Part shown: positions 11,371-12,124 of the stretch, one piece after another
Layout: every line of letters starts with the position of its first letter
Numbering within the stretch: position 1 is the first letter of the stretch
Source: a virus
Length of the DNA: 64,000 nt
Strand: one strand, 5' to 3'
Virus genome (UHGV): UHGV-1519562
Notes under the pieces: generated by a model
The model's input: only the letters and a program-made list of their open reading frames with translations
Told to the model about the DNA's origin: nothing
Database searches by the model: none
Made by a program: the position numbers and the translations under genes

Positions 11371-11490
11371 GACATAATCAACCACCTCCACGCGGTATGT
11401 CTTGGGTAAAGCGAACGGTTGAATGATTTTGGGTACATTTGGATAATTTAGTAGCCAAAAAAACTCCATAATATAATGGAGGGATGTATA

Positions 11491-11952
11491 ATGAGTTATA
11501 TTTATAGAATTATTAATAATATAAACGATAAGGTTTATATTGGAAAAACTGCTTTTGATATTTCAAAACGATTCAAAGAGCATTGTAATGATGCTTTTAA
11601 GAAAACAGAAGAAAAAAGACCATTATATGCGACAATGCGTAAATATGGGATAGAGCATTTTACAATAGAACAAATTGAAGAGTGCTCTGACGCTGCGGCC
11701 GCAGACAGAGAAGCCTATTGGATTAGTATGTATTCTGCTTATGAAAAAGGATATAATGCGACTCTTGGTGGCGATGGTAAATTTTTATATGACCACAAAG
11801 CAATTGCTTTGCGACTTCAAGAACATCCATATTCTCAAGATGTAGCAAAGAAGTTTGGATGTTGTGTTGATACAGTAAGAAATATTGCTAATCAATATGG
11901 TATTTCATTATTAGTCAATAATGGCCATAAAAAAAACTATTTCTGCTTATAG
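11491..11952 (+). CDS. GIY-YIG homing endonuclease, catalytic N-terminal part (frame broken at an A8 run)
   Basis: YIYRIINNINDKVYIGKT...RFKEH...YWI motifs; ATG after GGAGGG RBS; the frame ends inside an A-run where a second ORF begins. Confidence 0.7.
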   Translation: MSYIYRIINNINDKVYIGKTAFDISKRFKEHCNDAFKKTEEKRPLYATMRKYGIEHFTIEQIEECSDAAAADREAYWISMYSAYEKGYNATLGGDGKFLYDHKAIALRLQEHPYSQDVAKKFGCCVDTVRNIANQYGISLLVNNGHKKNYFCL

Positions 11953-12124
11953 TAAAAGCGGTGTTTTAATAAAAACTTTTGAATCTACCTCAGAAGCAGC
12001 TCAGTGGTGTTATGATAATCAAAAATGTGCCACTTTGCACTCTGGTGTTAGAAGCCATATAGCACAATGTGCTAATGGGATTCGTAAATCTGCATATAGT
12101 TATATATGGAAATATGAAAATTAA
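11921..12124 (+). CDS. homing-endonuclease C-terminal DNA-binding module, in a different frame from the GIY-YIG domain
   Basis: SxxEAAxW...KSAYSYIWKY resembles C-terminal DNA-binding modules of phage homing endonucleases; overlaps 11491..11952 across the A-run. Confidence 0.55.
   Translation: MAIKKTISAYSKSGVLIKTFESTSEAAQWCYDNQKCATLHSGVRSHIAQCANGIRKSAYSYIWKYEN

What the first reader, a model, noticed from the sequence alone, without database searches (positions are those of the whole stretch)
11476..12124. GIY-YIG homing endonuclease inside the tRNA cluster, split by a frameshift at an A8 run
The catalytic domain (11476..11952) and the C-terminal DNA-binding module (11921..12124) are in different frames and overlap at AAAAAAAA. 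This could be a sequencing error, a decaying homing endonuclease gene, or slippage-dependent expression. Its position between tRNA genes matches the usual homing endonuclease insertion niche.
Basis: seen in the sequence. Interest (0 to 1): 0.45.

Follow-up and report, generated by a model that had tools for sequence, protein, structure and literature searches.

The report
Frameshifted homing endonuclease in phage tRNA cluster
A selfish DNA-cutting gene that entered this gut phage's tRNA cluster together with its own tRNA genes has been broken in this strain by one extra A in a run of seven; this is the ordinary decay of such genes, not a special decoding trick.

Summary
ORF1 (true start 11491, ends 11952) and ORF2 (11921-12124) are two frames of one GIY-YIG homing endonuclease gene, joined at an A8 run (11929-11936). 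Removing one A gives a 210-aa protein.

The frameshift is strain-specific. Every sister strain examined (about 99% identical gene) has A7 and one intact ORF, as do all but two of the 120 best-listed homologues (3,584 in all). Nine other 8-base runs inside ORFs of the window are in frame. A contig that differs by a 13-nt indel also carries A8. So this is a real, recent replication-slippage mutation, not a conserved recoding site and probably not a sequencing error.

Sister strains carry other lesions in the same gene: an 8-bp deletion and a CAG-to-TAG change.

The break falls in the linker before the last DNA-binding domain, leaving the nuclease plus a helix-turn-helix.

Context: the gene arrived as a tRNA-Phe / tRNA-Met / endonuclease cassette that replaced a resident tRNA-Met. 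A 96%-identical relative keeps the uninvaded site. The closest described analogue is T4 SegB.

Verdict: a new member of a known kind, of low interest.

A separate side observation deserves follow-up: PD-(D/E)XK endonuclease ORFs sit inside tRNA anticodon loops as ribozyme-less, intron-like inserts.

The parts
11241..11249 (+). Remnant (TGCAGGCAG) of the 5' end of the resident tRNA-Met that the cassette replaced
   Evidence: The uninvaded relative L011 has an intact tRNA-Met(CAT) starting with this sequence (L011 4550-4622). Homology to the window stops after these 9 nt.
11243..11294 (+). Truncated 3' two-thirds of a donor tRNA-Phe (anticodon mutated to AAA), ending in CCA. It overlaps the remnant at the GGCAG microhomology that forms the left junction.
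   Evidence: It matches the tRNA-Phe(GAA) that precedes tRNA-Met plus endonuclease in L018 and L019 (38/41 and 37/41 nt). Rfam gives only 21 bits for tRNA over 11201-11291.
11296..11367 (+). Cassette tRNA-Met(CAT) that travels with the endonuclease gene
   Evidence: ARAGORN and Rfam (49.5 bits) detect it. A homologous 72-73-nt tRNA-Met lies about 125 nt upstream of the endonuclease homologue in L012, L016, L018 and L019.
11368..11490 (+). Conserved leader. It contains an anti-SD CCTCCA (11385-11390), a hairpin TTTTGGGTAC/GTAGCCAAAA (11427-11436 / 11451-11460), a local hairpin CTCCAT/ATGGAG (11464-11469 / 11476-11481) and the SD GGAGGG (11478-11483).
   Evidence: The leader is conserved in phages whose endonuclease is only 60-72% identical. 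In the consensus fold the anti-SD pairs with the SD, and 3 pairs show compensatory changes. That this represses translation is an inference.
11491..11952 (+). ORF1 (153 aa): GIY-YIG nuclease (11491-11775), linker, HTH (11794-11895), then 5 out-of-frame residues and TAG followed by TAA
   Evidence: Pfam PF01541, E 1.6e-13. PDB I-TevI catalytic domain, E 6.7e-7 by sequence and TM 0.80-0.84 by fold. Structure model.
11929..11936 (+). A8 run. The extra A relative to the A7 of intact alleles causes the frameshift.
   Evidence: Window, L002, L003 and L004 have A8. L001, L005, L006, L007, L008, L009 and L010 have A7.
11921..12124 (+). ORF2 (67 aa, frame +1). Residues 149-210 of the ancestral protein (11936-12121) form the C-terminal beta-beta-alpha-alpha-beta DNA-binding domain. 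There is no SD before ATG 11921.
   Evidence: Weak Pfam hit to I-HmuI_NUMOD-like, E 0.054. Foldseek hit to the I-HmuI-DNA complex 1u3e, probability 0.95. pLDDT 86-93 in this region.
12127..12145 (+). Right junction of the cassette, where homology with the uninvaded relative resumes. It includes one copy of the repeated motif GAC(A/T)CATACAGCAA (12132-12145).
   Evidence: L011 4622 onward aligns with the window from 12127. The motif occurs 5 times on the + strand against 0.22 expected.

Best explanation
This is a free-standing, Seg-like GIY-YIG homing endonuclease gene.

It entered this ~130-kb gut phage as a tRNA-Phe / tRNA-Met / endonuclease cassette from another large phage lineage. It overwrote the resident tRNA-Met, leaving 9 nt of that gene and a truncated donor tRNA-Phe at a 5-nt microhomology junction.

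In the intact form, the N-terminal nuclease is tethered by a linker to an HTH and a NUMOD-like domain. It presumably cuts the uninvaded tRNA locus of co-infecting relatives, so that repair copies the cassette in.

In the strain sequenced here, replication slippage lengthened an A7 tract to A8 in the linker before the last domain. The main product is therefore a 153-aa nuclease plus HTH that lacks its C-terminal DNA-binding domain, and is probably crippled for site-specific cleavage. This is the early degeneration phase of the homing cycle.

Rare A8-to-A7 reversion, or polymerase slippage, could give traces of full-length protein, but nothing suggests this is selected.

Shown: gene identity, the A7/A8 polymorphism, the empty site, the cassette structure, and lesions in sister strains.

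Inferred: the cleavage target, the loss of activity, and translational repression by the leader.
For: (1) Both ORFs together match single-ORF proteins. P0001 is 98% identical over 210 aa, and 3,584 homologues were found. Only two of the 120 best-listed are not about full length: P0013, which is this allele, and P0036 (195 aa, not examined).

(2) DNA alignment of sister strains shows that the only indel between A8 and A7 alleles is this one A.

(3) The window has 16 runs of 8 bases and none longer. Nine other A8/T8 runs lie inside ORFs that stay open.

(4) A8 appears in the JGI, ENA and Logan assemblies. The ENA contig differs from the window by a 13-nt insertion elsewhere.

(5) Other lesions occur in the same gene in about-99%-identical strains: an 8-bp deletion flanked by TATT microhomology in L009, and CAG->TAG at codon 171 in L006, L007, L008 and L010, which differ from one another by SNPs.

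(6) Catalytic residues are conserved (R27, E74, N89) and the fold matches I-TevI.

(7) An empty site exists. L011 is 96% identical in the flanks and has a different, intact tRNA-Met where the window has the 877-bp segment 11250-12126.

(8) The truncated tRNA-Phe and the tRNA-Met match the tRNA-Phe / tRNA-Met / endonuclease order of L018 and L019.

(9) Of 80 IMG/VR homologues, 76 have a tRNA within 1.5 kb and 56 have a same-strand tRNA within 250 nt upstream. T4 SegB shows the same niche and drives inheritance of its tRNA region (PMC2330249; PMC13096335).
Against: The A8-bearing contigs have no SNPs relative to each other and probably come from one cohort, possibly one person. Persistence of the allele over time is therefore not shown.

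Selection across the eight-sequence cluster still looks purifying (omega about 0.29; 6 nonsynonymous against 5 synonymous; p = 0.047). Decay, if real, is very recent.

All three lesions fall in the last third of the gene (chance about 0.04). This could mean the nuclease plus HTH part is being retained for some function.

The TAG lesion may not be a lesion. Homologues in other phages use TAG as a Gln codon, once at this very codon. TAG is almost never a stop in this window (2 of 49).

No cleavage or expression data exist.
Confidence: 0.77

Rival explanations
1. Sequencing or assembly error: the true sequence is A7 and the gene is intact.
For: Homopolymers are the classic site of indel errors. 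All relatives have A7. The three A8 assemblies have no SNPs among them and may share reads. The Logan run is ERR1136729, and a sister-strain contig from the neighbouring run ERR1136622 carries a ZEEV15 (Zeevi 2015) label.
Against: Three different pipelines call A8. The ENA contig is a distinct genotype, with a 13-nt insertion at about window 9321, yet has A8. Nine other A8/T8 runs inside ORFs of the same window are in frame, and no other gene of the window looks frameshifted.
Confidence: 0.08
2. Slippage-dependent or switchable expression. The A8 tract acts as an attenuator or phase-variable switch. A small fraction of transcripts (minus 1 A or plus 2 A, by RNA polymerase slippage) or of ribosomes (+1 shift of tRNA-Lys on A AAA AAA A) yields the full-length enzyme, keeping a toxic nuclease at low dose.
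For: Eight As allow perfect re-pairing of tRNA-Lys in the +1 frame, and some polymerase slippage. The shift window 11915-11949 is open in both frames. Phage homing endonucleases are commonly kept at low expression, and the conserved leader buries the SD. The ORF2 sequence shows no further decay.
Against: No other allele or homologue has the shifted arrangement, so nothing indicates selection for it. Efficient bacterial transcriptional slippage needs about 9 A/T (PMC5009743). There is no slow codon, stop codon or upstream SD to stimulate a +1 shift; the next zero-frame codon is AAC. A -1 shift on A AAA AAC leads to a 13-codon dead end. An undecayed ORF2 is expected anyway for a very recent mutation.
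Confidence: 0.07
3. A functional two-piece enzyme. ORF1 (nuclease plus HTH) and ORF2 (C-terminal domain, starting at its own ATG 11921) are both translated and work together or separately.
For: The break falls exactly in an inter-domain linker (pLDDT dips at residues 141-150). ORF2 starts with an ATG that precedes the whole last domain. The JGI gene caller called ORF2.
Against: There is no SD before ATG 11921, whereas this phage's genes, including ORF1, use strong SDs. No homologue is organised in two pieces. By established knowledge of I-TevI, GIY-YIG homing enzymes need covalent tethering of the nuclease to its DNA-binding module.
Confidence: 0.03
4. Quadruplet decoding. The tRNA immediately downstream (12158-12230; 8-nt anticodon loop CUUGAAAA, Phe-like) reads UUC-U at 11941-11944 as four bases. 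This would restore the frame, giving ...HKKNYF-AYSKSG...
For: The tRNA scores 51 bits as a tRNA. Its 8-nt loop is conserved in L011, with two compensatory changes in the anticodon stem. A UUC codon lies inside the shift window. The window has no ordinary tRNA-Phe.
Against: The same tRNA is present unchanged next to intact A7 alleles (L001) and in the endonuclease-less L011, so it is not tied to the frameshift. The cognate quadruplet would be UUCA, not UUCU. About 1% of tRNAs in such clusters have odd loops (3 of 367). By general knowledge, 8-nt loops can still decode triplets, as in yeast mitochondrial tRNA-Thr1.
Confidence: 0.015

Closest known systems
Phage T4 SegB (free-standing GIY-YIG homing endonuclease in the T4 tRNA gene cluster)
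   Same: Both have a GIY-YIG nuclease at the N-terminus, are about 210-220 aa, and are free-standing between tRNA genes. In both, relatives lacking the gene have a different tRNA complement at the locus, so the endonuclease and flanking tRNA genes are inherited together (PMC2330249). A widespread SegB-tRNA association has been reported (PMC13096335), and the same pattern was measured here.
   Different: Identity to T4 SegB is only 31% and is confined to the catalytic domain; the C-terminal halves do not align by BLAST. The host is a ~130-kb, 30%-GC gut phage with an SPbeta-like DnaE polymerase, not a T-even phage. The target site is unknown. This copy is frameshifted.
I-TevI (intron-encoded GIY-YIG endonuclease of T4 td)
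   Same: It is the best solved-structure match for the catalytic domain: 32% identity, TM 0.80-0.84, with R27, E75 and N90 equivalents conserved. Both have a modular nuclease-linker-DNA-binding design.
   Different: This gene is not in an intron. Its DNA-binding part is an HTH plus an I-HmuI/NUMOD-like domain, not a zinc finger, minor-groove helix and HTH.
Defunct homing endonuclease genes in phages (for example truncated I-TevIII of T4) and the homing cycle of invasion, fixation, degeneration and loss
   Same: A homing endonuclease gene disabled by a small lesion while intact copies persist in relatives (title and abstract of PMC2790892). The cycle model itself is general knowledge (Goddard and Burt 1999).
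   Different: Here intact, frameshifted, deleted, TAG-bearing and empty-site alleles are all seen within one phage species in human gut metagenomes.
Programmed frameshifting or transcriptional slippage at A/T runs (dnaX, IS elements, Thermus dnaX A9)
   Same: A homopolymer lies at the junction of two overlapping frames that together encode one protein.
   Different: The shifted arrangement is not conserved in any relative. The run is 8 rather than 9 or more. The shift needed is +1 (or -1 nt in the RNA) and no stimulator is present.

Membership tests
GIY-YIG homing endonucleases (I-TevI / Seg type) | GIY-YIG catalytic domain with the conserved Tyr motifs, Arg, Glu and Asn | tested here: met
   YIY (residues 3-5) and YIG (16-18) are present. 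R27, E74 and N89 are invariant in 56 homologues. Pfam PF01541, E 1.6e-13. I-TevI 1mk0/1ln0: E about 7e-7 by sequence, TM 0.80-0.84 by fold.
GIY-YIG homing endonucleases (I-TevI / Seg type) | Nuclease tethered by a flexible linker to separate DNA-binding modules | tested here: met
   Shown for the intact allele P0001. The model has a disordered linker at 92-98, an HTH at 102-135 and a beta-beta-alpha-alpha-beta domain at 149-209. The C-terminal region matches the I-HmuI-DNA complex at probability 0.95. In the window the last module is out of frame.
GIY-YIG homing endonucleases (I-TevI / Seg type) | Presence/absence polymorphism at a fixed site, with co-conversion of flanking DNA | tested here: met
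   L011 (96% identical flanks) lacks the 877-bp segment 11250-12126 and has an intact resident tRNA-Met instead. The window retains 9 nt of that gene plus donor tRNA fragments.
GIY-YIG homing endonucleases (I-TevI / Seg type) | Site-specific double-strand cleavage of the endonuclease-less allele, and biased inheritance in co-infection | not testable with these tools
   This needs purified protein or phage crosses.
SegB-like subgroup | Located within a phage tRNA gene cluster | tested here: met
   The gene lies between tRNA-Met 11296-11367 and the tRNA at 12158-12230. 76 of 80 homologue loci have a tRNA within 1.5 kb.
SegB-like subgroup | Full-length sequence relationship to T4 SegB | tested here: inconclusive
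   31% identity over about 110 residues of the catalytic domain only. Phage records with 28-32% full-length matches are annotated 'putative SegB' by their depositors.
Programmed ribosomal frameshift or transcriptional slippage gene | The frameshift site and two-frame organisation are conserved among orthologues | tested here: not met
   All sister alleles have A7 in one frame. Of the 120 best homologues, all but this allele (P0013) and P0036 (195 aa, not examined) are about full length in a single ORF.
Programmed ribosomal frameshift or transcriptional slippage gene | A slippery site of adequate type with a stimulatory element | tested here: not met
   A8 is shorter than the 9 A/T needed for efficient slippage by bacterial RNA polymerase (PMC5009743). 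There is no stop or rare codon and no SD-like stimulator for a +1 shift. A -1 shift gives a 13-codon dead end.
Decaying (pseudogenised) homing endonuclease gene | The ORF is disrupted relative to intact close orthologues | tested here: met
   A single-base insertion relative to seven alleles about 99% identical.
Decaying (pseudogenised) homing endonuclease gene | Independent disabling lesions in sister lineages | tested here: met
   An 8-bp deletion in L009, and TAG at codon 171 in L006, L007, L008 and L010. Caveat: TAG could be read as Gln if this phage recodes TAG late in infection.
Decaying (pseudogenised) homing endonuclease gene | Relaxed selection (omega near 1) | tested here: inconclusive
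   Cluster-wide omega is about 0.29 (5 synonymous, 6 nonsynonymous, p = 0.047). The window's own branch has 2 nonsynonymous and 0 synonymous changes, too few to judge.

The most novel reading that the evidence does not exclude
The A7/A8 tract works as a reversible on/off or dimmer switch for a toxic homing endonuclease. The A8 state yields mostly a truncated nuclease plus HTH with a function of its own, with traces of full-length enzyme made by polymerase slippage or by the adjacent 8-nt-anticodon-loop tRNA. The clustering of all three lesions in the last third of the gene would then reflect selection to shed only the last DNA-binding domain.
Probability: 0.06. Interest if true: 0.55.

Novelty: new member of a known kind. 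Interest (0 to 1): 0.22.

Why it matters
On its own this matters little. It is a textbook snapshot of the homing cycle. Invaded-intact, invaded-broken (three different lesions) and uninvaded alleles of one locus co-exist in one uncultured gut phage species.

It also shows that a Seg-like endonuclease can carry replacement tRNA genes as cargo when it overwrites a resident tRNA gene.

For annotation, 11491-12124 should be recorded as one frameshifted gene, not as two genes.

The surrounding tRNA cluster is a hot spot for mobile endonucleases. The PD-(D/E)XK inserts seen there may be of more general interest than the frameshift.

Tried and rejected
- **DNA search of GenBank phages.** Megablast found nothing. 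The phage has no cultured close relative.
- **Exact-pattern scans.** Scans for the tract with a variable A-run found nothing in IMG/VR and only one A7 contig in the JGI metagenome collection. A similar scan for the L012-type tract found nothing. Allele frequencies could therefore not be estimated.
- **Link between the downstream 8-nt-loop tRNA and the frameshift.** Rejected as a specific link, because the same tRNA sits next to A7 alleles and in the endonuclease-less L011.
- **Odd anticodon loops as scars beside the endonuclease.** L019 also has an extra U next to its endonuclease. A survey found only 3 odd loops among 367 tRNAs, none adjacent to the gene. Left open.
- **TAG-to-Gln recoding in this phage.** There are no in-frame TAGs in the window or in about 20 kb of flanking contig, about 84 kb in all. 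The structural-gene part of the genome could not be reached, so this is undecided.
- **Group I intron around the PD-(D/E)XK ORF.** Rfam gave no hit.
- It is discarded. The real T4 SegB comparison is.
- **Single-protein search for PD-(D/E)XK relatives in IMG/VR.** It failed. The search with a protein alignment as query worked.

Full report
**1. The observation**

The window has an ORF at 11476-11952 in frame 1 and an ORF at 11921-12124 in frame 2. They overlap by 32 nt. The overlap contains exactly eight As at 11929-11936.

Frame 2 is +1 relative to frame 1, so removing one A fuses the two. Frame 2 is open from 11915 and frame 1 closes at TAG 11950, immediately followed by TAA. The shift window is therefore 11915-11949.

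The real start is ATG 11491, preceded by GGAGGG at 11478-11483. The JGI, ENA and Logan gene calls all use it.

ORF1 has a GIY-YIG domain (PF01541, E 1.6e-13). ORF2 has only a faint I-HmuI_NUMOD-like signal.

**2. One gene, broken only in this strain**

The fused 210-aa sequence finds 3,584 homologues. Nearly all of the 120 best are single ORFs of 205-229 aa. The exceptions are P0013, which is this allele, and P0036 (195 aa), which was not examined.

The best hit, P0001, is 98% identical, 210 aa and intact. Its contig L001 is 96.6-98.4% identical to the window over 11.7 kb and has A7 at the site.

In an eight-sequence DNA alignment of the gene (98-100% identical), the extra A is the only indel separating the window from the intact alleles. 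A JGI-collection contig, L005, also has A7.

The truncated product P0013 occurs on contigs from three sources:
- JGI 3300045988, which is the window's own contig. The window is nt 64001-128000 of Ga0495776_163692.
- ENA ERZ27260760.
- Logan ERR1136729.

These contigs have no SNPs against the window. The ENA contig does carry a 13-nt insertion at about window 9321, so it is not the same assembly product.

The window has 16 homopolymer runs of 8 and none longer. Nine other A8/T8 runs lie inside ORFs that remain open. There is thus no sign of systematic homopolymer miscalling.

**3. What the protein is**

An AlphaFold model of the intact allele (mean pLDDT 87) has these parts:
- a GIY-YIG domain at residues 1-90
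- a disordered linker at 92-98
- a three-helix HTH at 102-135
- a lower-confidence connector at about 140-148
- a beta-beta-alpha-alpha-beta domain at 149-209

The N-terminal domain matches the I-TevI catalytic domain (TM 0.80-0.84, 32% identity). The C-terminal half matches the DNA-bound I-HmuI structure at probability 0.95. By sequence, I-TevI is the only solved relative.

R27, E74 and N89, the equivalents of the I-TevI catalytic Arg, Glu and Asn, are invariant in 56 homologues.

The frameshift falls in the connector. ORF1 therefore keeps the nuclease and HTH, and ORF2 is the complete last domain. ORF2's ATG has no Shine-Dalgarno sequence, unlike ORF1 and neighbouring genes.

**4. Other lesions in sister strains**

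L009 has an 8-bp deletion (TATTTCAT, flanked by TATT repeats) at codon 138.

L006, L007, L008 and L010 come from four samples and differ among themselves by SNPs. All have CAG->TAG at codon 171.

Together with the A8 allele, this makes three different lesions within one cluster of 20 distinct sequences at 90% identity or more. Of the 15 listed, 11 are full length (210 or 215 aa), three are these truncated forms, and one is the window's own ORF2.

Among the eight aligned sequences there are 5 synonymous and 6 nonsynonymous changes (omega about 0.29, p = 0.047 against neutrality). The gene was therefore under constraint until recently.

All three lesions lie in the last 35% of the gene, which would happen by chance about 4% of the time.

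**5. A caveat on the TAG allele**

Homologues at 60-72% identity in other large gut phages (L012, L016, L018) contain in-frame TAG codons where relatives have Gln. One of these is at the very codon hit in L006. L018 also carries a tRNA(CUA).

The window phage shows no in-frame TAG in about 84 kb examined. It uses TAA for 40 of 49 stops in the window and 12 of 12 in flanking DNA, and TAG for only 2.

The window carries replication and nucleotide-metabolism genes, not late genes, and the structural-gene region could not be reached. Whether TAG171 is a stop or a Gln codon therefore stays open.

This does not affect the A8 frameshift, because ORF1's TAG is followed at once by TAA.

**6. How the gene got there**

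A relative from the same collection, L011 (IMGVR_UViG_3300045988_145614), is 94-97% identical in the flanks and lacks the endonuclease. Window 11250-12126 (877 bp) corresponds to 63 bp in L011. Those 63 bp are the body of an intact but unrelated tRNA-Met(CAT).

The window keeps only the first 9 nt of that tRNA (11241-11249). The sequence that follows (to 11294, ending in CCA) is the 3' two-thirds of a tRNA-Phe. It matches at 38/41 nt the tRNA-Phe that sits directly before tRNA-Met and the endonuclease homologue in L018 and L019. The shared GGCAG marks a microhomology junction.

In L012, L016, L018 and L019 the homologue always lies about 125 nt after a 72-73-nt tRNA-Met homologous to window 11296-11367, and the spacer is conserved. 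The mobile unit is therefore tRNA-(Phe)-Met plus leader plus endonuclease. In this phage it replaced the resident tRNA-Met.

The consensus fold of the leader pairs an upstream CCTCCA (11385-11390) with the SD, and three pairs show compensatory changes. A local CTCCAT/ATGGAG hairpin is an alternative. Translational repression is an inference from this.

**7. The niche**

Of 80 IMG/VR homologues (40-57% identity, all full length in one frame):
- 76 have a tRNA within 1.5 kb
- 56 have a same-strand tRNA within 250 nt upstream
- 23 of those 56 are tRNA-Met

This parallels T4 SegB. SegB lies in the T4 tRNA cluster, recognises a site that includes the conserved T-psi-C stem-loop motif, and drives inheritance of its tRNA region (PMC2330249). 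A general SegB-tRNA association has also been published (PMC13096335).

Direct comparison with T4 SegB gives 31% identity over the catalytic domain only.

**8. Mechanism and rivals**

The most likely reading is a recent A7-to-A8 replication-slippage mutation in a gene that is no longer needed once the cassette is fixed. The result is a truncated enzyme.

- *Programmed recoding is not supported.* The two-frame arrangement is not conserved. A8 is below the 9 A/T at which bacterial RNA polymerase slips efficiently (PMC5009743). No +1 stimulator is present. A -1 slip on A AAA AAC ends after 13 codons.
- *The neighbouring tRNA is not tied to the frameshift.* The tRNA at 12158-12230 has an 8-nt anticodon loop (CUUGAAAA) and could in principle read UUC-U inside the shift window. 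However, it is identical next to A7 alleles and is present in the endonuclease-less L011.
- *Sequencing error* remains possible at a low level, for the reasons given in section 2.

**9. Verdict**

This is a correctly observed, correctly interpreted and ordinary feature. It is a new member of the Seg-like GIY-YIG homing endonucleases, caught with a strain-level frameshift.

The host phage is an uncultured ~130-kb, 30%-GC gut phage. Its DnaE-type polymerase is 39% identical to SPbeta YorL. It has an SLH-domain protein and uses SD sequences, which suggests a Bacillota host.

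Noticed in passing
window 9442-10003 (insert 9479-9964, ORF 9496-9939); also L006 6860-7406 and L012 5634-6167: A PD-(D/E)XK endonuclease ORF (PF11645, E 2e-30) sits in a 486-nt insert between nt 36 and 37 of tRNA-Ile(UAU). Sister strains L001, L006 and L011 have the uninterrupted tRNA. Similar 453- and 457-nt inserts split tRNA-Ser(GCU) in L006 and a tRNA in L012. Only 30-45 nt are non-coding and Rfam finds no group I intron. In each case the anticodon plus the first intron bases pair perfectly with the last intron bases (8-11 bp). In IMG/VR, 31 of 60 homologues lie inside ARAGORN intron-type tRNAs of many isotypes. The 415-491-nt class shows mostly 7-11-bp junction-spanning helices (two of 5-6 bp) that include G.U pairs (mean over the <=500-nt set, which includes spurious short calls, 7.7 bp against 5.4 for permuted partners). 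These may be ribozyme-less tRNA introns; no description was found in the literature search.
   Followed up: partly
window 12158-12230: A tRNA (Rfam 51 bits) has an 8-nt anticodon loop CUUGAAAA, Phe(GAA)-like with an extra U. The loop is conserved in the 96% relative L011, with two compensatory changes in the anticodon stem. The window has no ordinary tRNA-Phe. L019 likewise has tRNA-Asn with an extra U (CUUGUUAA) right after its endonuclease, where L018 has the normal loop.
   Followed up: partly
window 10599, 11166, 12132, 12526, 20090 (+ strand): The motif GAC(A/T)CATACAGCAA recurs just after tRNA or gene ends in both tRNA clusters: 5 matches with up to 2 mismatches, against 0.22 expected. 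It may be a promoter, a processing signal or a recombination signal.
   Followed up: no
whole window; L105 1-10000: TAG is almost never used as a stop (2 of 49 ORFs of 120 aa or more in the window, 0 of 12 beyond it) and never appears in frame. Endonuclease homologues in other large gut phages carry TAG-as-Gln codons, and L018 has a tRNA(CUA). The genetic code of this phage's late genes is unresolved.
   Followed up: partly
window 21535-23058 and 10604-10711: A 507-aa DUF2828/DUF7788 protein (PHROG label 'RNA-binding protein') lies directly after the second tRNA cluster. There is also a weak, sub-threshold YrlA (Y-RNA-like) hit in the first cluster (24.9 bits, gathering score 69). Together these may be a Ro/Y-RNA-type module.
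   Followed up: no
L105 1281-2267 (beyond the window end); window 13507-14739: A reverse transcriptase (RVT_1) and a serine recombinase lie within 10 kb past the window end. The 410-aa protein at 13507-14739 has a weak Mtd_N-like N-terminus (E 3e-4, below the Pfam cut-off). This may indicate a diversity-generating retroelement and a temperate lifestyle.
   Followed up: no
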